The notes below the pieces were generated by a model. The model did not search any database. It was not told the origin of the DNA and saw only the letters and a program-made list of their open reading frames with translations. Position numbers and translations under genes: made by a program. Positions 12,740-59,510 of a stretch of 64,000 nucleotides of DNA are shown here, piece by piece. This DNA is from Bacillota bacterium. GTDB taxonomy: Bacteria; Bacillota; Sulfobacillia; JABLXB01. The first letter of the stretch is position 1, and each line of letters begins with the position of its first letter. The stretch covers positions 140,203-204,202 of the forward strand of contig JABLXB010000001.1 in NCBI GenBank assembly GCA_013178305.1, given 5' to 3'.

Positions 12740-13870
12740 CTACATACCATCGACGTACTCGACGATCTGGCTCGGGGTCATGTCCGCAATACCCAGCTGC
12801 TTCAGTGTCCTACCCATCTGCCAGAAGTTCTGGTTACAGACTGCAGACCCTATGTACACGATGCTGTCGGTGACTGGAGTCGGCACGCCCAGTTTGTCAC
12901 CGAGCTGGGATACCGGCACCAACCCGAAGGGCAAGTCCTCCGTGATGTACCGGTCGTAGATAGTGTGAGGACCTGCGATGGAGGCGATGACTCCAGCCGT
13001 GTCGAATGGGGCCTGGAACGCCACGCCCATTATGCTGGTGGTCGCCCGGAAATCCCGATCCTCGTACTGCAGGACTTCCAGCCCCATGGCCTTGGCTACG
13101 CTCTCGACTTCGATGAAGATGTGACGGATGACCCTCGCTACGGCCTCCGTTATGCCCTCCCTGTACATGTTGAAATCCCCGCGGGAATACTGGATGCGTC
13201 CCGTATTAAGCAGGGACCCCGGTGGGTGAACGATCGGGTTCGGGTTGCAAAAGCCGGCGACAAGCACGTTACGGCACGGCTGGAGGCAGGGGTACGCCAA
13301 CTTCAGGACATCTACAATCTGCGCCGATTTCTTGCCCGGCAAGGAGGCCAGGAGTACAAGCGGGGCGGCGCAAAGGAGGTTCACGACTCCGGCCTCTTCC
13401 AGCCGTGTCCCGTAAGGCAAGGTATTTGCTTCCGCGATGGTAACATTCTTCTTGATACCGCTCTCCTTCAACAAGTGAGCCAGGCGCAGTGAACCGTAGT
13501 CACCAGCCCATACCACCACGGCCTGACCATCCCTGAGGTGAGGGAGGAGCTCCTTGAAGAAGGTATCGTGACCGGTGGCCGGGATAACCACGTTGATCCA
13601 CTCGACGCCTTCAAGAGCCTCCGCCATGTCGGTCGTGACCTTCGCGATCTTTGCCTTGCCGGTCCGTCCCATGCCCTTGAGCTCGATCGTCTTCGATTCG
13701 AGAACAGGCGCGAATTTGGGGCCTTTCGCGAACTCGGGCGTCTCGTACAGATGGACAGTGTAGCCAGCAAGCGTCAAATCCGCCGCCATCGTCTGGGCGC
13801 CGTTACCCCCGCCGAGAACGGCAATCGGTTTGTTTAACACCGCATCACTCCCTTTCCGAATAGTGGACAC
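12740..13870 (-). CDS. NAD(P)-dependent opine dehydrogenase family oxidoreductase, paralog 2
   Basis: Carries KPIAVLGGGNGAQ (Rossmann) and the same C-terminal domain as paralog 1. Start is GTG 13870 (AAGGA RBS) or the in-frame GTG at 13843 (AAGGGAG RBS). Confidence 0.75.
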   Translation of the reverse strand: MSTIRKGSDAVLNKPIAVLGGGNGAQTMAADLTLAGYTVHLYETPEFAKGPKFAPVLESKTIELKGMGRTGKAKIAKVTTDMAEALEGVEWINVVIPATGHDTFFKELLPHLRDGQAVVVWAGDYGSLRLAHLLKESGIKKNVTIAEANTLPYGTRLEEAGVVNLLCAAPLVLLASLPGKKSAQIVDVLKLAYPCLQPCRNVLVAGFCNPNPIVHPPGSLLNTGRIQYSRGDFNMYREGITEAVARVIRHIFIEVESVAKAMGLEVLQYEDRDFRATTSIMGVAFQAPFDTAGVIASIAGPHTIYDRYITEDLPFGLVPVSQLGDKLGVPTPVTDSIVYIGSAVCNQNFWQMGRTLKQLGIADMTPSQIVEYVDGM

Positions 13871-13896
13871 CCGAATCCTTACGTGTCAAACCCGAT

Positions 13897-13912
13897 TGCA
13901 AGGAGAATGCCA
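13897..13912 (-). promoter_or_regulatory. sigma-54 (-24/-12) promoter TGGCAT-TCTCC-TTGCA upstream of dehydrogenase paralog 2
   Basis: The minus strand reads TGGCATTCTCCTTGCA with GG and GC separated by exactly 10 nt. This is about 15-45 nt upstream of the candidate start codons. The adjacent gene encodes a sigma-54 activator. Confidence 0.6.
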
Positions 13913-14108
13913 TAAAAGGAATGCTGTAAGAAGCATGGTATTAACATGGTTGTGCAAGCACAACCGAATGAAAATCGAAGAAGGGGGTGTAACAGGTTGT
14001 TACAATCCCCTTCTTCATTCGCGTTCTTGAGTCGCTCGCGACCCAATGTAACCCCTTGTGACATGTCACGCGAACGTGTTACATAGGGCGTGATTCACCA
14101 GGCGTAAT

Positions 14109-15866
14109 TCAGTCTTCCAGCAGCCTATAGATGGTCTGGCGCGACACTCCCAACAGATTCGCGGCTCTCCTCTTATTGCCCCCTGTCAGTTTCAGCGTCT
14201 CCATGACCGCTTTCCTATTGGTATCCATTTGCTCCTTTTGGCTGATGAATTTACGTCCCGCAGGATGCAGTCCTGACACAAGCAAATCGTCCTCGGTGAT
14301 GTACTTCCCTTTACAGACGCAGAGAGCCCTGGATAGCGTGTTCTCCATCTCCCTGGCATTACCCGGCCAGCTGTGGAGCGACAACACCCTCCTGGCTTTG
14401 GGGTCTATTCCCTCTACCTCCTTGTTGATCGCTTTGCCCAGTTTCTTCAAGAAGGAATCGGCCAGAACCTGGATATCCTCTCTCCTCTCTCTCAGAGGAG
14501 GTATGCTAATATAAAGTACCTTAAGTCTGAAGTACAGGTCGGCCCGGAACTTCCCGTCCCTGACCATCTCTTCAAGGTCCCGGTTGGTTGCCGCGATTAC
14601 CCTGACATTAACGAAGAAGGGTTTACTTCCACCGATTCTGGTAATGCTCGTGGTTTCGAGAACCCTTAAGAGTTTGGCCTGCAAGTGGATCGGCATTTCG
14701 CTTACTTCATCGAGAAACAGGGTCCCACCGTTGGCGAGCTCGAACTTTCCTGGTTTGCCACCTTTTCTGGCGCCGGTGAATGCCCCCTCCTCGTAGCCAA
14801 ACAGCTCACTATCGATCAGTTCGTTGGGGAAGTTGGCACAGTTGACGGCAACAAAGGGCTCCGACTTCCGGGCGCTGTAATTGTGGATGGCCTGGGCAAA
14901 GAGCTCTTTACCGGTTCCACTCTCGCCCTGTATTAATATGTTCGCTGTACTCTGCGAAAAGGTTTTTGCCAGGGATATCCTCTCTTTTATTGCCGGGCTT
15001 TCGCCGATTATGTCGTCAAATCTGAACGTCGCTTCATACCCTGCAATGGTGTTGGCCAATTTCCGGGAACGTTTCATGCTTCTGAATATATCAATGGCGC
15101 CAATGATGTTCCCCGAGTCATCAAAGACGGGGTAACCGGAGTTATACAGATGCATCGCATTGCCTTTGAACTTCAAAAAATACTCATAATCCACGATGCT
15201 CGTTTTCTTATTCAGGATTTTGAGCAAGAAGGAATTCGTGACGAATTCGTCAATGCTTCTGCCTATGAATTCTTCCCGTGGCGTTTTTGTCATCTCGCAG
15301 CACATTTTGTTAACGTAAACGAATCTGCCGTCTTTATCGCACGCGGAGATTCCATCTTCAATATGATCAAGGAAGCGCACAAGGAGCTCATATTTCTTTT
15401 CGGCGTTGTACTTGTTAACCACTGCTGCAATGTCATTGATGTTCTTAGCGGTGTTCACCAGGAATTTTGGGATGTCGTCCTCTTCTTTGTCTGTTGCGAA
15501 GCACAAATAGTAATCTAAACCCTCTTCTTCCCCCGATTTATGATAAAAGTACAAGATGACCTTCCCAGGCTCATTTAAATCCCTGACGAATTTCGCGACT
15601 GTATCGGAATCAATCTTCGGCTTATACGATATGTCGAAGCATTTCCCTACCAATTCCTTCAACTGCGGTTTATCTTTAGCATGTACGGCAAGGATCGTGA
15701 AACTGCGGTCCAGGAGTAGAAGGCAAGAGTCTTTCCCACACATGGTCATGAGGCAGGATAGACCAAAACAGTCTGTCAATACGCGTCTTCCTGTATCAAT
15801 GGCCCTTTCCACAACATCCTTGGCTATCGCTGAGTAGAGAAATCGAATGACAACATCGTTGAGCAT
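14109..15866 (-). CDS. sigma-54-dependent transcriptional activator with N-terminal sensory/PAS region, AAA+ sigma-54 interaction domain and C-terminal Fis-type HTH (RocR-like)
   Basis: Contains GESGTGKELFAQAIH and GAFTGA sigma-54 interaction motifs. The C-terminal HTH reads RRAANLLGVSRQTIYRLL. The gene is about 45% GC against about 65% in its neighbours. Confidence 0.85.
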   Translation of the reverse strand: MLNDVVIRFLYSAIAKDVVERAIDTGRRVLTDCFGLSCLMTMCGKDSCLLLLDRSFTILAVHAKDKPQLKELVGKCFDISYKPKIDSDTVAKFVRDLNEPGKVILYFYHKSGEEEGLDYYLCFATDKEEDDIPKFLVNTAKNINDIAAVVNKYNAEKKYELLVRFLDHIEDGISACDKDGRFVYVNKMCCEMTKTPREEFIGRSIDEFVTNSFLLKILNKKTSIVDYEYFLKFKGNAMHLYNSGYPVFDDSGNIIGAIDIFRSMKRSRKLANTIAGYEATFRFDDIIGESPAIKERISLAKTFSQSTANILIQGESGTGKELFAQAIHNYSARKSEPFVAVNCANFPNELIDSELFGYEEGAFTGARKGGKPGKFELANGGTLFLDEVSEMPIHLQAKLLRVLETTSITRIGGSKPFFVNVRVIAATNRDLEEMVRDGKFRADLYFRLKVLYISIPPLRERREDIQVLADSFLKKLGKAINKEVEGIDPKARRVLSLHSWPGNAREMENTLSRALCVCKGKYITEDDLLVSGLHPAGRKFISQKEQMDTNRKAVMETLKLTGGNKRRAANLLGVSRQTIYRLLED

Positions 15867-55248: not shown

Positions 55249-55992
55249 ATGTTTTTCCAAGCCGCCCTCGTAGCAATAATCACCTGGGTGGTCGCCACGT
55301 ACCTGCCCATGAGCGTGCGCTGGGCACTGTACTTCGGCGGCCCACTGATGGCAGGACTCATCGACGGTTTGATCTTCGGTAACGTCCCGCTCGGACTGCA
55401 AATCGGCGCCACGATCCAGATGGCTTACGTTGGTCTCGTGGCCGCGGGTGGAACGCTCCCCTCCGACCTGGCCCTCGCCGGTTACCTGGGAGTGGCGCTC
55501 GGGATCATCGCCAACGCCACCCCCGAGGTTGCGATGACACTGGCAGTCCCCCTCGGGCTGCTCGGGTTGCTCGCGTTTAACACCCGCATGACCCTGAACG
55601 CGTTCTGGGTGCACAAGGCCGACGAGTACGCCGAGAAGGGCGATACGCGCGGTATCATCCTGATGAACGTCGTGTGCTCGCAGATCTTTCCGTTCCTCGT
55701 GTATGTTCCGACCACCTTCCTCGCGATCTACTATGGTAGCGGCTGGGTAAACACGGCGCTCACGCAGCTCCCCAAGTGGCTCATCGATGCGCTCAAGGTC
55801 ACCGGCGGGCTGCTCCCCGCGCTCGGTCTCGGCATGCTCCTGAAGTTCCTGGCCAAGCCGGGCCTGATACCTTACCTGTTCCTGGGCTGGGTCATGGCCA
55901 CCTACCTCAAGATGGACGTAATGGCCGTGGCCATTGTCGGCGCGTGCATCGGTGCCTTAAGACTATACCGCGAACGCGAGAAGGCAGCGTAA
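55249..55992 (+). CDS. PTS mannose-family EIIC component
   Basis: AAGGAGGT RBS; about 248-aa polytopic membrane protein following EIIB. Confidence 0.8.
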   Translation: MFFQAALVAIITWVVATYLPMSVRWALYFGGPLMAGLIDGLIFGNVPLGLQIGATIQMAYVGLVAAGGTLPSDLALAGYLGVALGIIANATPEVAMTLAVPLGLLGLLAFNTRMTLNAFWVHKADEYAEKGDTRGIILMNVVCSQIFPFLVYVPTTFLAIYYGSGWVNTALTQLPKWLIDALKVTGGLLPALGLGMLLKFLAKPGLIPYLFLGWVMATYLKMDVMAVAIVGACIGALRLYREREKAA

Positions 55993-56007
55993 AGGGGGGT
56001 AATGAGG

Positions 56008-56823
56008 ATGACCGAAAGAAAGACGCTGGACAAAGTCACACTACGGAAGTCGTTCCTGTGCTGGCTATTCTTCCTGCAGACAAACTACAACTTCGAGCGC
56101 CTGCAGTCGCTCGGCATATGCCATTCCATGATTCCGGTGCTCACCAGGCTCTACCAGAAGAAAGAGGACCTGGTCGCCGCCCTGAAGCGTCACCTCACGT
56201 TCTTCAACACCGAACCCACGTGGGGCTCCATGATACCCGGCCTCTGCGCCGCCCTTGAAGAGGAGAGGGCTAACGACCAGCCGATATCGGACGAGATGAT
56301 CAACTCCCTCAAGACCGCGCTCATGGGGCCGCTGGCAGGCATCGGTGACACCATTACCCAGGGCCTGATGAAGACCGTCTTCCTCGCGATCGGCATCGAC
56401 CTCGCCATCAAGGGCAACGCGATGGGCCCCGTGATCTTCTTCCTTCTCATGAGCGGGTATGCCATCGGCGTGAGCTGGTTCATGTTCTACACCGGCTACA
56501 GGCTCGGCAAGAACGCGATACAGCAGATGCTCCAGAGCAACATCCTAGATCGGGTGACGTCGGCGCTGTCAGTGCTCGGGCTCATGGTGACCGGAGCGCT
56601 TGCCGCGGGCCGCGTAAGCCTCCAGACCCCGGTCAAGTTCACCATCGGGAAGACGGCGGTCGCGCTGCAGCCGATCCTGAACCAGATCATGCCCGGCCTG
56701 CTCGGGTTGGCGTTTCTCCTCATCGTGTGGCAGTGGCTGAGGAAGGGCGTCTCTCCGGTCAGGGTGATCGGCTACATCTTCGCGATCGGGTTCGCGTGCA
56801 GCCTGCTCAAGATACTGGCGTAG
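56008..56823 (+). CDS. PTS mannose-family EIID component
   Basis: SFLCWLFFLQTNYNFERLQSLGICHSMIPVL is a typical IID N-terminus. Confidence 0.85.
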   Translation: MTERKTLDKVTLRKSFLCWLFFLQTNYNFERLQSLGICHSMIPVLTRLYQKKEDLVAALKRHLTFFNTEPTWGSMIPGLCAALEEERANDQPISDEMINSLKTALMGPLAGIGDTITQGLMKTVFLAIGIDLAIKGNAMGPVIFFLLMSGYAIGVSWFMFYTGYRLGKNAIQQMLQSNILDRVTSALSVLGLMVTGALAAGRVSLQTPVKFTIGKTAVALQPILNQIMPGLLGLAFLLIVWQWLRKGVSPVRVIGYIFAIGFACSLLKILA

Positions 56824-56826
56824 GGA

Positions 56827-57630
56827 GTGAAGCGATTGGATTTCGGGAAAGTGTTCGGCACTGAGAAGCCCATCATAGGGCTGGTCCACCTCCCACCGCT
56901 GCCGGGGGCGCCAAAGTTCGAGGCTGGAACCAGGATGAAGGACCTGGTGAAGACGGCGGTCAAGGACGCGAAGGCTCTCAAGGAAGCCGGCTTTGACGCG
57001 ATGATCTTCGCCAACGAGGGTGACTACCCGTACTCCAACCCGGTCGGGCTCGAGACTGTGGCTGCGTACGCGCGTATAGCCACCGAAGTGATAGACAAGG
57101 TCAAGATGCCGTACGGCGTCGGCTGCCTGATCGACCCCAAGGCGACGTTCGCCCTCGCGAGAGCGCTCGACGCCCAGTTCGTCAGGACGTACATGTCCGG
57201 TGTGTTCGCCAGCCTGTTCGGACTCGAGGTGTTCAACCCAGGCGACATCGCGCGCTACATCAAGAGCATAGATGCGGGTTCGATCCCAATGTTCTTGAAC
57301 CTCACGCCGCACGCCGGCACATCACTCGACAAGCGCGAGTTCCTATCGCTGATAGACGGGGCCCTGTTCATGCTCGGGCCCGAGGTCGTGCTGATGCCAG
57401 GCCCGCGCGCGGGGCTCCCGCCGGACCTCGCGCTGCTCAAGGAGGCCAAGAAGAGATATCCCAAGGTGAAGATCATGGTCTCCAGCGGCGTAACTCCGGC
57501 CAACGTCAAAGAGGCGCTGGAGTACGGAGACGGCATACTCGTCGGGACCAACGTCAAAGTCGACGGCTACATCTTCAACCCGATCGACCCGGCGAGGTGC
57601 GAGGCGTTAATGAAAGCCGCGGGGCGGTAA
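56827..57630 (+). CDS. sgcQ: BtpA/SgcQ family TIM-barrel protein
   Basis: IIGLVHLPPLPGAP N-terminus and GADAMIFANEGD, typical of BtpA/SgcQ. Last gene of the PTS operon. Confidence 0.7.
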   Translation: MKRLDFGKVFGTEKPIIGLVHLPPLPGAPKFEAGTRMKDLVKTAVKDAKALKEAGFDAMIFANEGDYPYSNPVGLETVAAYARIATEVIDKVKMPYGVGCLIDPKATFALARALDAQFVRTYMSGVFASLFGLEVFNPGDIARYIKSIDAGSIPMFLNLTPHAGTSLDKREFLSLIDGALFMLGPEVVLMPGPRAGLPPDLALLKEAKKRYPKVKIMVSSGVTPANVKEALEYGDGILVGTNVKVDGYIFNPIDPARCEALMKAAGR

Positions 57631-57660
57631 CCTGCTCGGTAAGCTATGCTGAGTGTAATC

Positions 57661-57688
57661 GAAGCACCACGGTAGACCGTGGTGCTTC
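57661..57688 (+). terminator. hairpin after the PTS operon (12-bp perfect stem GAAGCACCACGG / CCGTGGTGCTTC, 4-nt loop)
   Basis: Read directly. The following tract (GTCACTTATGG) is only moderately U-rich. Confidence 0.4.
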
Positions 57689-57800
57689 GTCACTTATGGA
57701 AGCCGTAAGTATTGTCGTCTGTGCTCACAGGTGCGAGGGTAGAGATGGTGGGTGATTGCTAGGACTTCCAATTATGGTAGAATTGAATAGGGTGAGCGTT

Positions 57801-59090
57801 ATGAAAACTGACAAAACCCTACCTATTAGGAAATCATATGAATTCTTTCTGGAAAGACACAAGACGGGTATTCCTTTTACGCTTGAAGAGATTCAGTGTG
57901 CTACCGGGTGGCGTCGTAACACCGTCAGAACCTATGTGACAAAGAAATGGGACGGCTTTCTTACGAGGAACGGTGGGCAGTATGTCGTGGCACAGCCCTT
58001 GCCCTACACGGAAGAGGAGTACGTCCGCCTGATGTCTCAGAAGCAGGCCTTAAGCAGAGACCCGCGTAAACCGGACTTTCCCTTGGAAACCGAACGCTTA
58101 GTAGCAAAAGCAAGAGAAGCCGCGGTGCTAGCCCTCGATATCTATAATCGCCCGGGAACGCTGTTCCGAACGCAGGGTTTCATCGTAATGATGGTTATCG
58201 CTTGGACCGCTCTGTTTCATGCTGTTTTTGAGAAACGAGGCATATCGTACATATACGAGAAAGATGGCTCCCCGGTAGTTGTAGATGGCGACCCCAAGGC
58301 ATGGGGCATTGGGGATTGTATGGATCGCTATTTCGGCTCGTCGAATTCGCCCATAAGGCGCAACCTCGATTTCATCATCGGACTCCGGAACAAGATCGAA
58401 CACAGGTATGTTCCAGCAATCGATCCACACGTAGGAGGCGAGTGTCAGGCGCTTTTGATGAACTTCGATGACCTGCTTACGAGCGAATTTGGCGACTACT
58501 ACGCCCTGCGAGAAACCATGTCTGTGCCTCTCCAAACCTCGACTATCCGCCCGCAAGGACAGATGGAAGCCATGAAGCGGTTTCAAGGTAAGCAATATGA
58601 TGAGATCAAGGACTACATTGACGGTTTCAGAGCGGAACTGCCGACCGAAGTCTATCAGGATCCTCGATTCAGTTTTCGAGTCTACCTGGTGCCGCGAATT
58701 GGCAATCACGAGAGTTCGTCGGACCTAGCGATCGAGTTCCTGAAGTACGATCCCTCTAACCCGGAATTCCTTGACGTTACCAGGAAAATCGCACTCATAC
58801 GGGATCGCAGAGTGGAGGTTCTGAACCGAGGAAAATTCCGGCCGTCAACTGTCGCTCAGATAGTCGCGAAGAAGATCGGCCGCCCGTTCAGCATACATAA
58901 CCACACGCAAGCTTGGAAGCTCTTCGGCGTAAGGAAACCGGGCGAAGATCCGGCAGGGTGCAAAACGGAGTACTGTCAGTTTGACGAGCCTCACAGCGAC
59001 TATATCTACACGCAAAAGTGGATAGATTTCCTGGTCCTCAAACTGTCCGACGAGCAGGAATACAATCGGGTCGTCTCCTTCAAGTGGTGA
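57801..59090 (+). CDS. hypothetical protein in an AT-rich island; the central region contains an Abi/HEPN-like R-x4-H motif (GLRNKIEHRY)
   Basis: ATG 57801 with an AGGGTGAG RBS. About 50% GC against about 65% in flanks. Motif RNKIEHR, followed by conserved acidic/aromatic residues. Confidence 0.6.
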   Translation: MKTDKTLPIRKSYEFFLERHKTGIPFTLEEIQCATGWRRNTVRTYVTKKWDGFLTRNGGQYVVAQPLPYTEEEYVRLMSQKQALSRDPRKPDFPLETERLVAKAREAAVLALDIYNRPGTLFRTQGFIVMMVIAWTALFHAVFEKRGISYIYEKDGSPVVVDGDPKAWGIGDCMDRYFGSSNSPIRRNLDFIIGLRNKIEHRYVPAIDPHVGGECQALLMNFDDLLTSEFGDYYALRETMSVPLQTSTIRPQGQMEAMKRFQGKQYDEIKDYIDGFRAELPTEVYQDPRFSFRVYLVPRIGNHESSSDLAIEFLKYDPSNPEFLDVTRKIALIRDRRVEVLNRGKFRPSTVAQIVAKKIGRPFSIHNHTQAWKLFGVRKPGEDPAGCKTEYCQFDEPHSDYIYTQKWIDFLVLKLSDEQEYNRVVSFKW

Positions 59091-59156
59091 AGCGGACGCA
59101 CACACCCGTGAGCCGAGCGGTAACGGGGTAGTAGCGTGGGAGGGGCCGGCAAACAA

Positions 59157-59459
59157 ATGGACGATATCTCGGTTCGACGATGGCTTAGAGAAAACGGCTA
59201 CGAAGATGTTGCAGAAATGATAGACGCTGTCATCGCTGAATGGCAGGCTGCTGGAAACAAGACCAGACGCAACTGGTGGTTGGTCTTGGCTGGCGGCAGG
59301 AACGGAAAACCACGGAGAATAATGGGGCGGGTATTCCCGGTACTAAAGGTTGCCCAAGTCAGACAGGGCATCCCGGTCACATCCAACGCCATCTCACGGA
59401 CAGTTGACGAGAAAGCCCCCAGGATTAAGCCGACTAACCGCTGGCCGAAACCGAAGTAG
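59157..59459 (+). CDS. hypothetical small basic protein in the same AT-rich island
   Basis: ORF in the track (59136 frame) with Arg/Lys/Trp-rich composition. It lies in the same low-GC stretch. Confidence 0.35.
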   Translation: MDDISVRRWLRENGYEDVAEMIDAVIAEWQAAGNKTRRNWWLVLAGGRNGKPRRIMGRVFPVLKVAQVRQGIPVTSNAISRTVDEKAPRIKPTNRWPKPK

Positions 59460-59510
59460 ACCATTGTCAGGAGTCCGGACTCTTCTAGGTCTTCCTAGTC
59501 ATACAACTTT

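What the first reader, a model, noticed from the sequence alone, without database searches (positions are those of the whole stretch)
57640..59470. AT-rich two-gene island with an Abi/HEPN-like protein inserted between the PTS operon terminator and an MBL hydrolase gene
The stretch 57.7-59.5 kb is about 50% GC in a 65% GC genome and sits exactly between a hairpin terminator (57661-57688) and a 12-bp palindrome (GAGTCCGGACTC at 59471-59482). It encodes a 429-aa protein plus a 100-aa Arg/Lys/Trp-rich protein. The large protein has a probable N-terminal nucleic-acid-binding region and a central R-N-K-I-E-H-R segment. That segment is the R-x4-H signature of HEPN RNase domains as seen in Abi-type abortive-infection proteins and toxin modules. 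A horizontally acquired HEPN-type toxin/defence or abortive-infection gene pair with no annotated relatives nearby is the most plausible reading, and it is the best candidate in this window for an undescribed system.
Basis: partly seen in the sequence, partly recalled or inferred. Interest (0 to 1): 0.75.

Follow-up and report, generated by a model that had tools for sequence, protein, structure and literature searches.

The report
HEPN defence gene with small partner
A small foreign-looking insert carries a predicted HEPN-type defence nuclease from an already catalogued family, plus a conserved, unnamed 100-residue partner protein; in other microbes this pair almost always travels with a DNA methyltransferase, which is missing here.

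Summary
A 1.85-kb stretch of 52% GC (window 61.8%) lies between the BtpA/PTS operon and a convergent MBL gene. It encodes a 429-aa protein (A) and a 100-aa basic, Trp-rich protein (B).

The new part is B. It has no Pfam, PDB or fold match, and only 197 cluster representatives among 1.84 billion. It follows only "long" (winged-helix) A genes (15/30 versus 0/48, p = 4e-8). Elsewhere it is fused to Dam-class methyltransferases, a defence ATPase and a SIR2-STAND protein.

In relatives A-B is co-inherited with a Dam methyltransferase, usually with a type II restriction enzyme as well. Neither occurs anywhere in this 64-kb window.

Best reading: an orphaned two-gene defence cassette, a new variant of a known kind. 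The mechanism is inferred, not shown.

The parts
57660..57689 (+). Perfect 14-bp-stem hairpin just after the BtpA stop (57630). Probably the terminator of the PTS/BtpA operon. It marks the left edge of the low-GC insert.
   Evidence: It is the only 14-bp perfect stem in the window, at -25 kcal/mol, with no T-tract. Nucleotide homology to a 77%-identical relative (L149) stops at window 57632.
57756..57783 (+). Promoter-like site TTGCTA-16 nt-TAGAAT with a TG extension. It is followed by the ribosome-binding-like GGGTGAG (57790-57796) and the ATG of gene A.
   Evidence: Consensus scan: 4 sites found against 1.5 expected in the region, so this is only suggestive. Sequence read directly.
57801..59090 (+). 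Gene A, 429 aa. A long-form DUF3644/PDC-S19 protein made of a winged helix, a HEPN domain and a C-terminal domain.
   Evidence: Pfam PF12358 E 4.3e-50. PADLOC PDC-S19 E 7.6e-115 over residues 95-424. 725 homologues at E<=1e-3, full-length at 48-63% identity. AF2 model mean pLDDT 83.
57801..57995 (+). A residues 1-65: N-terminal winged helix-turn-helix. It is present only in the 'long' form of the family.
   Evidence: The model has three helices plus a beta-hairpin at pLDDT around 90. Foldseek local matches to the SelB winged helix (prob 1.0, 60 columns, 2.7 A), IscR and BrxR, none significant as whole-protein E-values. The E. coli 042 DUF3644 protein shares this domain.
58083..58640 (+). A residues 95-280: HEPN domain (Pfam DUF3644).
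58386..58403 (+). Codons for R196-N-K-I-E-H201, the R-x4-H HEPN catalytic motif.
   Evidence: In 70 long and short relatives R196 is 99% conserved, N197 90% (D 7%) and H201 99%. The motif histidine is required for HEC-08 defence (bioRxiv 10.1101/2024.01.29.577857).
58641..59087 (+). A residues 281-429: conserved C-terminal domain of unknown fold. It has a beta-hairpin and a helix-helix-hairpin-helix unit. H368, C392, W407 and L411 are invariant, and C/H387 and H398 are possible metal ligands.
   Evidence: Conservation. Residues 295-341 have pLDDT below 50. The domain is covered by the PDC-S19 model. It cannot be aligned to the C-terminal domain of the E. coli 042 protein, for which a restriction-endonuclease fold was proposed.
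59157..59459 (+). Gene B, 100 aa, pI 11.1, five Trp. It belongs to a small unnamed family with motifs WLRENGY and TRRNWW. GGAGG lies at 59139-59143.
59471..59482 (.). The 12-bp palindrome GAGTCCGGACTC between the B stop and the MBL stop. It is listed only because the finding used it as a border, and it is probably not functional.
   Evidence: There are 30 such palindromes in the window against about 16 expected. The fold is weak, -6.5 kcal/mol.

Best explanation
This is a horizontally acquired two-gene defence cassette against mobile DNA or phage.

Gene A encodes the effector. It is a long-form member of the DUF3644 / EC042_2821 HEPN family (PADLOC candidate PDC-S19). It has an N-terminal winged helix, a HEPN nuclease domain with an intact R196-N-x3-H201 site, and a conserved C-terminal domain (H368, C392, W407).

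Gene B encodes a 100-residue, very basic, Trp-rich protein of a small unnamed family.

Shown here:
- the fold and motif of A;
- the conservation of the A-B pair;
- B's restriction to winged-helix forms of A;
- B's fusion elsewhere to DNA methyltransferases and defence effectors;
- co-inheritance of A, B and a Dam-class methyltransferase, usually with a type II restriction enzyme, in other genomes;
- absence of such a methyltransferase and restriction enzyme from this 64-kb window.

Inferred:
- B and the winged helix bind nucleic acid, and either position or license A or control its expression.
- On invasion, the HEPN site cuts RNA, and the C-terminal domain possibly acts on DNA. The result would be aborted infection or loss of the invading element, as reported for the DUF3644 proteins HEC-08 (phage) and Ishtar (plasmid RP4).
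- In relatives the cassette acts as a second layer beside a restriction-modification system. Here it is an orphan that either works alone or relies on a methyltransferase encoded elsewhere in the genome.
For: Identity of A:
- Family and fold.
- Motif conservation.
- HEPN status of DUF3644 and its occurrence in restriction-modification operons, with a winged helix 'in some': Anantharaman 2013.
- Tested DUF3644 relatives: HEC-08, where the motif histidine is essential, and Ishtar, which causes plasmid loss.

The A-B pair:
- B lies 15-50 nt downstream of A, or overlaps it, in 15 of 30 long-form species-level loci and in 0 of 48 short-form loci (p = 3.6e-8).
- Three of the four closest relatives examined (57-62% identical) also have B.

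Link to a methyltransferase:
- A Dam-class methyltransferase occurs in 18/30 long-form loci and 0/48 short-form loci (p = 4e-10).
- The methyltransferase is fused to A in Kentron.
- L009 and L021 carry five-gene operons with overlapping stop and start codons.
- Pairwise identities correlate across loci: A-B r = 0.85, A-M 0.74, B-M 0.85, each Mantel p = 2e-4.

B fusions:
- B is fused to Dam methyltransferases, to a PDC-M56A ATPase and to SIR2-STAND.

Foreign origin:
- GC and GC3 are distinct from the neighbours.
- Homology to a relative ends at the BtpA stop.
- An independent assembly of the same organism shows the same intact cassette.
- Relatives lie in defence islands, plasmids and phage satellites.
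Against: - No experiment exists for this subfamily. PDC-S19 is only a candidate, and I found no paper that tests it.
- Foldseek of the whole model and a profile search against PDB sequences gave nothing significant.
- B has no recognisable fold, so its role is a guess.
- The usual methyltransferase and restriction partners are absent here. That could mean a decaying remnant.
- Another 48%-GC region in the window holds an ordinary regulator gene, so low GC alone is weak evidence.
- No mobility gene, tRNA or flanking repeat marks an insertion.
- I could not compare A with the Ishtar2 sequence.
Confidence: 0.62

Rival explanations
1. A(+B) is the restriction-like component of a methylation-dependent self/non-self system. 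The Dam-class methyltransferase protects the host DNA, and A, targeted by its winged helix and by B, attacks unmodified incoming DNA or its transcripts. In this genome the cognate methyltransferase would be encoded outside the 64-kb window.
For: - A, B and the Dam methyltransferase stay linked whatever the gene order or strand.
- The methyltransferase and A are fused in one polypeptide in Kentron, as in fused restriction-modification enzymes.
- Some loci have A-B-M with no separate restriction gene: L017, L027, L034, L141 and L142.
- B is fused to methyltransferases, and in L145 a Dam-B fusion is paired with a small PDDEXK_11 gene.
- The E. coli 042 long form sits beside a methyltransferase of a different family.
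- Ishtar proteins cause plasmid loss, which suggests a DNA-level outcome.
Against: - About a third of long-form loci, and all 48 short-form loci, have no adjacent methyltransferase.
- No methyltransferase lies in this window, and GATC is not depleted.
- HEPN domains are RNases in every characterised case.
- The restriction-endonuclease fold proposed for the EC042_2821 C-terminal domain cannot be transferred to this C-terminal domain.
Confidence: 0.2
2. The pair is a decaying remnant. It was originally part of a four- to five-gene cassette (regulator, A, B, Dam methyltransferase, type II restriction enzyme). The methyltransferase and restriction genes were deleted, and A-B persists without a function.
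For: - 18 of 20 B-positive loci elsewhere keep a Dam methyltransferase within about 3 kb, and the closest relatives all do.
- The B stop is only 51 nt from the MBL stop, which leaves no room for more genes.
- B elsewhere seems tied to methyltransferases, including a probable C5 methyltransferase in a viral contig.
Against: - Both reading frames are intact and keep every invariant residue of their families.
- A promoter-like site and ribosome-binding sites are present.
- Stand-alone long and short forms are common, and one short-form type is experimentally active as a single gene.
- L013 also has A-B without a Dam methyltransferase.
Confidence: 0.12
3. A-B is a toxin-antitoxin pair. A is a HEPN RNase toxin and B is its proteic antitoxin, stabilising the island or aborting infection when B is degraded.
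For: - It is a compact two-gene operon with a HEPN protein.
- A-B identities co-vary, r = 0.85.
Against: - B is not an MNT nucleotidyltransferase and matches no antitoxin family.
- Half of the long forms and all short forms lack B.
- B lies downstream of A rather than upstream.
- B occurs without A, fused to or next to methyltransferases and other effectors.
Confidence: 0.1
4. It is an ordinary host gene pair, for example a regulator of the neighbouring PTS/BtpA operon.
For: Same strand as the PTS operon, and A has a winged helix.
Against: - A strong hairpin and a separate promoter-like site separate it from the operon.
- Its composition is foreign.
- A relative with the same PTS/BtpA genes lacks A after BtpA.
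- Homologues are scattered over bacterial and archaeal phyla, next to defence genes.
Confidence: 0.02

Closest known systems
PADLOC candidate PDC-S19 (single-gene phage defence candidate; DUF3644 proteins)
   Same: The best PDC-S19 model matches A at E 7.6e-115 over residues 95-424, which covers the HEPN domain and the C-terminal domain.
   Different: The model starts at residue 95. The 94-residue winged-helix N-terminus and the partner gene B are outside the definition of a single-gene candidate. I found no paper that names or tests PDC-S19.
EC042_2821 family of the HEPN superfamily (Anantharaman et al. 2013, PMC3710099)
   Same: That paper equates the family with DUF3644, classes it as HEPN with a conserved R-x4-6-H, and notes fusion to a winged helix 'in some' and occurrence in restriction-modification operons. 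The E. coli 042 DUF3644 protein aligns to A residues 1-222 (27% identity, E 2e-20) and sits beside a DNA methyltransferase and an integrase at ssrA.
   Different: The C-terminal domains do not align (BLASTP finds nothing; hhalign probability 0.35). The methyltransferase there is PF01555, not Dam-class. No B homologue is in that locus.
Ishtar (ist1/ist2) anti-plasmid proteins of Acinetobacter baumannii (bioRxiv 10.64898/2026.07.06.735840)
   Same: They have a HEPN domain (DUF4145 or DUF3644) followed by a C-terminal beta/alpha domain of unknown function. Their distribution is patchy, in variable regions, integrons and satellites.
   Different: They are described as stand-alone single genes with an N-terminal HEPN domain, with no winged helix, no partner and no methyltransferase link. 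I could not obtain the sequences, so relatedness beyond the Pfam name is untested.
HEC-08 (bioRxiv 10.1101/2024.01.29.577857)
   Same: It has an N-terminal DUF3644 HEPN domain, is embedded in another defence system, was shown to be anti-phage, and needs the motif histidine.
   Different: Its C-terminus is a set of zinc-finger-like domains. A gave no HEC-08 hit in PADLOC at E<=1, although other HEC models of that release did match other proteins.
PrrC / RloC anticodon nucleases
   Same: They are HEPN nucleases whose genes are embedded in restriction-modification loci and act as a second line when restriction is countered (Anantharaman 2013 table; established knowledge). In relatives, A-B is likewise embedded beside a Dam methyltransferase and a type II restriction enzyme.
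   Different: A has no ABC-ATPase domain. The partner system is type II rather than type Ic. In this window there is no restriction-modification system at all.
Controller (C) proteins and DNA-binding regulatory domains of type II methyltransferases (comparison for B only)
   Same: They are small basic proteins encoded inside restriction-modification operons, or fused to the methyltransferase, as B is.
   Different: B has no Xre/HTH_3 signature and no Pfam hit, and its model has no fold match. B is also fused to a defence ATPase and to SIR2-STAND. Several relatives already carry a separate small HTH gene upstream of A.

Membership tests
HEPN superfamily | Four-helix up-and-down bundle fold | tested here: met
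HEPN superfamily | R-x4-6-H motif with a polar residue after R | tested here: met
   The motif is R196-N-K-I-E-H201. In 70 relatives R is 99% conserved, N/D 97% and H 99%.
HEPN superfamily | Metal-independent RNase activity | not testable with these tools
   This needs biochemistry.
Pfam DUF3644 (PF12358) / EC042_2821 family | Profile match above the curated cut-off | tested here: met
   170.3 bits against a cut-off of 27.6, over residues 99-279. The match to the E. coli 042 member is 27% identity at E 2e-20 over residues 1-222.
Pfam DUF3644 (PF12358) / EC042_2821 family | C-terminal restriction-endonuclease-fold domain (EC042_2821_CTD of Anantharaman 2013) | tested here: inconclusive
   BLASTP finds no C-terminal alignment to the E. 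coli 042 protein, and hhalign of the C-terminal profile gives probability 0.35. The model is of low confidence at residues 295-341.
PADLOC PDC-S19 | Match to the PDC-S19 profile | tested here: met
   PDLC04950 E 7.6e-115 over residues 95-424. Seven further PDC-S19 models also match.
PADLOC PDC-S19 | Single-gene system with defence activity | not testable with these tools
   It is only a candidate, and no paper in the library names it. Here the gene has a conserved partner.
Ishtar (Ist1/Ist2) | Sequence relatedness to ist1/ist2 and anti-plasmid activity | not testable with these tools
   The sequences (ACT42K_09795, ACT42V_03045) are not in any collection available here. Only the architecture could be compared.
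HEC-08 | Match to the HEC-08 profile; C-terminal zinc-finger-like array | tested here: not met
   No HEC-08 model appears among the PADLOC hits at E<=1. The C-terminal architecture differs. I am assuming, not certain, that HEC-08 models are in this PADLOC release. HEC-01, HEC-02 and HEC-06 are.
HEPN-MNT toxin-antitoxin | Adjacent MNT nucleotidyltransferase antitoxin | tested here: not met
   B has no Pfam, NCBIfam or PADLOC match at E<=1 and only two weak PHROGs matches (E 0.16, 0.39), and no fold match.
Abi families (AbiD/F, AbiJ, AbiU2, AbiV and others) | Profile match to an Abi family | tested here: not met
   Only DUF3644 and PDC-S19 were matched in Pfam and PADLOC at E<=1, apart from a 12.7-bit DUF3489 hit.
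PrrC/RloC | N-terminal ABC-type ATPase fused to the HEPN domain | tested here: not met
   No ATPase domain. The N-terminus is a 65-residue winged helix.
Type II restriction-modification system (with A as the restriction component) | Cognate methyltransferase encoded next to the nuclease | tested here: not met
   In the window, six-frame hmmsearch found no Dam-class gene at E<=1, and no ORF of 150 aa or more carries [DNS]PP[YFW]. The feature is met in 18/30 long-form relatives. The rest of the genome was not available.

The most novel reading that the evidence does not exclude
Long-form A, B and a Dam-class methyltransferase form a distinct, undescribed multi-gene immune system. In it B is a new small DNA-binding domain, possibly one that reads methylation state. 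Its four invariant tryptophans, and its fusions to methyltransferases of two classes and to SIR2-STAND and ATPase effectors, would fit such a reader or adaptor. B would couple the methylation status of DNA to a HEPN nuclease. The orphan A-B in this window would then show either that the effector half can work with a methyltransferase supplied in trans, or that it has become methylation-independent.
Probability: 0.2. Interest if true: 0.75.

Novelty: new variant of a known kind. Interest (0 to 1): 0.5.

Why it matters
HEPN nucleases are common effectors of bacterial immunity. The DUF3644 branch has only just begun to be tested, as HEC-08 against phage and Ishtar against plasmids.

This work shows that a large, cross-phylum sub-branch differs from the catalogued single-gene form in three ways:
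- it has an extra winged helix;
- it has a dedicated small partner protein with no known family or fold;
- it is tightly co-inherited with a Dam-class methyltransferase, usually inside a type II restriction-modification operon.

If the partner links DNA methylation or DNA recognition to HEPN activation, it would give a concrete, testable example of how a restriction-modification system and an RNase-type backup are wired together. It would also name a new adaptor domain that is reused in SIR2-STAND and ATPase defence proteins.

For this particular window the practical message is modest. The gene is a member of a known candidate defence family, and it is here in an unusual orphan state.

Tried and rejected
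- **Profile searches against PDB sequences.** The A family profile and the B family profile both found nothing meaningful.
- **hhalign between domains.** I compared B with A, with A's N-terminal domain, with the associated restriction enzyme and with the Dam methyltransferase. I also compared A's N-terminal and C-terminal domains with the restriction enzyme. All probabilities were below 1%. B is therefore not a copy of any of these, and A does not share a recognition domain with the restriction enzyme.
- **Transfer of the restriction-endonuclease fold.** The C-terminal domain of A does not align to the E. coli 042 protein. I dropped the restriction-endonuclease label for this protein.
- **Insertion signatures.** No flanking direct repeats, no tRNA, and no integrase or transposase next to the island.
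- **Empty-site test.** A metagenome scan with the MBL protein found at best a 69%-identical relative with no synteny. The BtpA search found one 83%-identical relative on a 2.5-kb contig. There, homology ends at the BtpA stop and no A gene follows within 690 nt, but the MBL gene is not there either. This is consistent with insertion but is not proof.
- **Contig index.** The exact A protein is not in it. The BtpA look-up later recovered an independent assembly with the identical arrangement.
- **GATC avoidance.** Tested as a trace of a Dam-linked restriction system. Observed/expected is 0.91, which is unremarkable.
- **The palindrome as an island border.** Chance-level.
- **Small genes upstream of A in relatives.** They are of several unrelated kinds (HTH_26, excisionase-like HTH, Cys-rich), so they are not part of a conserved core.
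- **Unknown B-fusion proteins.** P0152, P0155, P0222, P0226, P0264 and P0280 gave no Pfam, PADLOC or PDB identification.
Full report
**1. What is in the sequence**

Between the stop of a BtpA-family gene (57630) and the stop of a convergent metallo-beta-lactamase-fold gene (59511) lie two same-strand ORFs:
- A, 57801..59090, 429 aa.
- B, 59157..59459, 100 aa.

Pfam confirms the flanks. Upstream are a LevR-like sigma-54 activator, PTS mannose/sorbose IIB, IIC and IID genes, and BtpA. Downstream is a Lactamase_B gene.

The stretch 57640-59470 is 52.0% GC against 61.8% for the window. That is 2.9 sd below same-size windows. Third-position GC is 0.60 against 0.83-0.88 in the adjacent genes. One other region (13851-15681, 48%) is lower still.

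The hairpin at 57660-57689 is the only 14-bp perfect stem in the window (-25 kcal/mol), but it has no T-tract. The 12-bp palindrome at 59471 carries no information, because the window has 30 of them.

A promoter-like site with an extended -10 (57756-57783) and a GGGTGAG ribosome-binding-like site precede the ATG of A. GGAGG precedes B. I found no tRNA, flanking repeats or mobility genes.

**2. Gene A**

A matches Pfam DUF3644 (E 4.3e-50, residues 99-279) and the PADLOC candidate PDC-S19 (E 7.6e-115, residues 95-424). It has no NCBIfam name and one PHROG of unknown function.

Anantharaman et al. 2013 placed DUF3644 in the HEPN superfamily as the EC042_2821 family. They noted a winged helix 'in some' and occurrence in restriction-modification operons.

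An AlphaFold2 model built on 45 homologues (mean pLDDT 83) shows four parts:
- a three-helix plus hairpin winged helix (residues 1-65);
- a helical domain (95-280);
- a poorly predicted beta-hairpin region (295-341);
- a C-terminal helix-helix-hairpin-helix unit.

In 70 long and short relatives R196 and H201 are 99% conserved and N197 is 90% conserved. In the C-terminal domain H368, C392, W407 and L411 are invariant.

The restriction-endonuclease fold that the 2013 paper proposed for the C-terminus of EC042_2821 cannot be carried over. The E. coli 042 protein aligns to A only over residues 1-222 (27% identity, E 2e-20), and the C-termini do not align.

**3. Distribution of the A family**

The A family is large. 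There are 725 hits at E<=1e-3 among word-index candidates, and the top 120 are full-length at 49-63% identity.

It is scattered over Bacillota, Bacteroidota, Chloroflexota, Myxococcota, Planctomycetota, CPR bacteria and archaea. It also occurs on 29 plasmids and, in distant short form, near the integrase end of many Streptococcus phage satellites.

Two forms exist:
- a short form of about 330-380 aa that starts at the HEPN domain;
- a long form of about 430 aa with the winged helix.

The PDC-S19 profile covers only the short-form part.

**4. Gene B**

B has no hit in Pfam, NCBIfam or PADLOC, and only two weak PHROGs matches (E 0.16, 0.39). A profile search against PDB sequences also finds nothing meaningful.

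B is nevertheless a real, conserved protein. Homologues share 47-66% identity, with invariant W9, W29, W40, W41, Y15 and the TRRNWW motif.

The family is tiny, with 197 cluster representatives at E<=1e-3 among 1.84 billion.

In 78 species-level loci, B lies directly downstream of A in 15 of 30 long-form loci and in none of 48 short-form loci (Fisher p = 3.6e-8). Three of the four closest relatives of the window's A that I examined (57-62% identity) also have it. The 'gene pair' is therefore genuine, and it is tied to the winged-helix form.

**5. The wider cassette in relatives**

A Dam-class (D12, PF02086/TIGR00571) methyltransferase lies within about 3 kb in 18 of 30 long-form loci and in 0 of 48 short-form loci (p = 4e-10).

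It is usually followed by a protein of about 430 aa that PADLOC calls a type II restriction enzyme. That protein carries Pfam DUF6996, DUF6997 and DUF7226.

In L009 and L021 the order is small HTH, A, B, methyltransferase, restriction enzyme, with stop and start codons overlapping by 4-11 nt. In other loci the methyltransferase and restriction pair is divergent or convergent but still adjacent.

In Candidatus Kentron the methyltransferase is fused to the N-terminus of a long-form A, and B follows.

Pairwise identities of A, B, M and R correlate across loci: A-B 0.85, A-M 0.74, B-M 0.85 (Mantel p = 2e-4 for these three), and M-R 0.95. The genes are therefore inherited as a unit.

Neighbours include type I restriction-modification, TIR, SLATT plus reverse transcriptase, GmrSD and integrase genes. 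The E. coli 042 long form sits next to an integrase at ssrA and a PF01555 methyltransferase.

**6. B without A**

B also occurs in other settings:
- fused to Dam-class methyltransferases at either end (P0138, P0143, P0179, P0183, P0228);
- fused to a PDC-M56A AAA_21 ATPase (P0185);
- fused to a SIR2 plus STAND NTPase protein (P0229);
- fused to several proteins I could not identify.

In L145 a 129-aa PDDEXK_11 gene abuts a methyltransferase-B fusion.

In the single viral contig that has B, the next ORF carries C5-methyltransferase motifs (DLFSGSGS, PPC, ENV). Its best, weak PDB matches are cytosine methyltransferases at E 0.04. This is suggestive only.

B therefore behaves as a mobile module that accompanies DNA methyltransferases and defence effectors. 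A nucleic-acid-binding or adaptor/regulator role is the simplest inference, but nothing here shows it.

**7. What is unusual in this window**

There is no Dam-class methyltransferase anywhere in the 64 kb (tblastn and six-frame hmmsearch at E<=1). No ORF of 150 aa or more carries an N6A/N4C catalytic motif. There is no homologue of the associated restriction enzyme.

Among B-positive loci with enough flank, 18 of 20 have the methyltransferase. The exceptions are L013, where a GmrSD-type enzyme follows, and this window.

Both genes are intact here. An independent assembly of the same organism shows the same arrangement.

A relative whose PTS/BtpA genes are 77% identical in nucleotides loses homology exactly at the BtpA stop and has no A gene in the next 690 nt. 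This fits insertion but does not prove it, because the MBL gene is not there either.

**8. Mechanism**

Shown:
- the fold, motif and domain order of A;
- the conservation of the A-B pair;
- co-inheritance with a methyltransferase and restriction system elsewhere;
- the absence of those partners here.

Inferred: A is a nuclease effector. Its HEPN site most likely cuts RNA, as in all characterised HEPN enzymes. The motif histidine is essential in the DUF3644 protein HEC-08. DUF3644/DUF4145 Ishtar proteins cause rapid plasmid loss with little killing. The winged helix and B most plausibly bind nucleic acid, and either guide or license A or regulate the operon.

In relatives the cassette looks like a second layer wired to a type II restriction-modification system, in the way PrrC is wired to EcoprrI. 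Alternatively it may be a restriction-like activity that shares the Dam methyltransferase for self-protection. The methyltransferase-A fusion, and the loci with A-B-M but no separate restriction gene, speak for the second option. The many methyltransferase-free loci speak against it being obligatory.

**9. Comparison, novelty and verdict**

A is a member of a known, catalogued candidate defence family: HEPN, DUF3644, EC042_2821 and PDC-S19. It is not an Abi, MNT-paired, PrrC-type or, as far as PADLOC shows, HEC-08 protein.

I found three features described nowhere in the searchable literature:
- the partner family B;
- B's strict association with the winged-helix form of A;
- the co-inherited Dam-class methyltransferase.

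I therefore rate this a new variant of a known kind, of moderate interest (0.5). Its claim of an undescribed system holds only for the partner and the wiring, not for the HEPN protein itself.

Noticed in passing
window 13851-15681 (gene 14109-15866, minus strand): This is the lowest-GC stretch of the whole window, 48% against 62%. It holds a sigma-54-dependent activator with PAS, AAA+ and HTH_8 domains. It may be another acquired gene, or it may simply show that low GC alone is a weak island marker here.
   Followed up: partly
window, whole: CTAG is strongly under-represented (27 seen, 62 expected, O/E 0.44), while GATC is normal at 0.91.
   Followed up: no
P0185, P0229, P0138, P0143, P0179, P0183, P0228 (proteins found with the B profile): The B domain is fused to Dam-class methyltransferases at either end, to a PDC-M56A AAA_21 ATPase, and to a SIR2 plus STAND-NTPase protein. 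It behaves as a mobile module of defence and methylation systems, yet has no Pfam family.
   Followed up: partly
L083 8001-10145 and 10150-10452 (Candidatus Kentron; proteins P0046, P0049): A Dam-class methyltransferase is fused to the N-terminus of a long-form DUF3644 protein (714-729 aa). A B homologue lies directly downstream.
   Followed up: partly
L009 5762-9779 and L021 3637-7670: Five-gene operons: small HTH, A, B, Dam methyltransferase and a restriction enzyme of about 430 aa. Stop and start codons overlap by 4-11 nt. The restriction enzyme consists of three Pfam domains of unknown function (DUF6996, DUF6997, DUF7226) that no paper in the library mentions.
   Followed up: partly
L145 4607-6221: A 129-aa PDDEXK_11 gene abuts a Dam methyltransferase-B fusion, with no A gene nearby. 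This is a possible minimal restriction-modification pair that uses the B domain.
   Followed up: no
L148 2086-3212 (IMG/VR viral contig): A B homologue is followed, with overlap, by an ORF carrying C5-cytosine-methyltransferase motifs. The PDB matches are weak (E 0.04). No A, Dam methyltransferase or restriction enzyme is in the locus.
   Followed up: partly
L147 21914-25802 (E. coli 042, NC_017626.1 3011913-3015801): The E. coli 042 DUF3644 protein, by position the founding member EC042_2821, lies directly after an integrase at the ssrA tmRNA gene. It is next to a PF01555 DNA methyltransferase, inside an element with MobQ relaxase and TraD genes.
   Followed up: partly
L013 7229-9907: This is the only other A-B locus without a Dam methyltransferase. 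There the pair is followed by a GmrSD-type (type IV, HEC-06/Orf5-like) restriction enzyme.
   Followed up: no
L149 (Logan SRR6986903 contig) against window 55835-57632: A relative shares the PTS IID and BtpA genes at 77% nucleotide identity but has only about 52% GC in those genes, against about 61% here. This is a large compositional shift between fairly close relatives.
   Followed up: no
Phage collection hits H27-H40 (Streptococcus satellite phages, about 1.5-2.5 kb from the record start): Distant short-form relatives of A (21-24% identity) occupy the same position near one end of many Streptococcus phage satellites. They are annotated as hypothetical.
   Followed up: no
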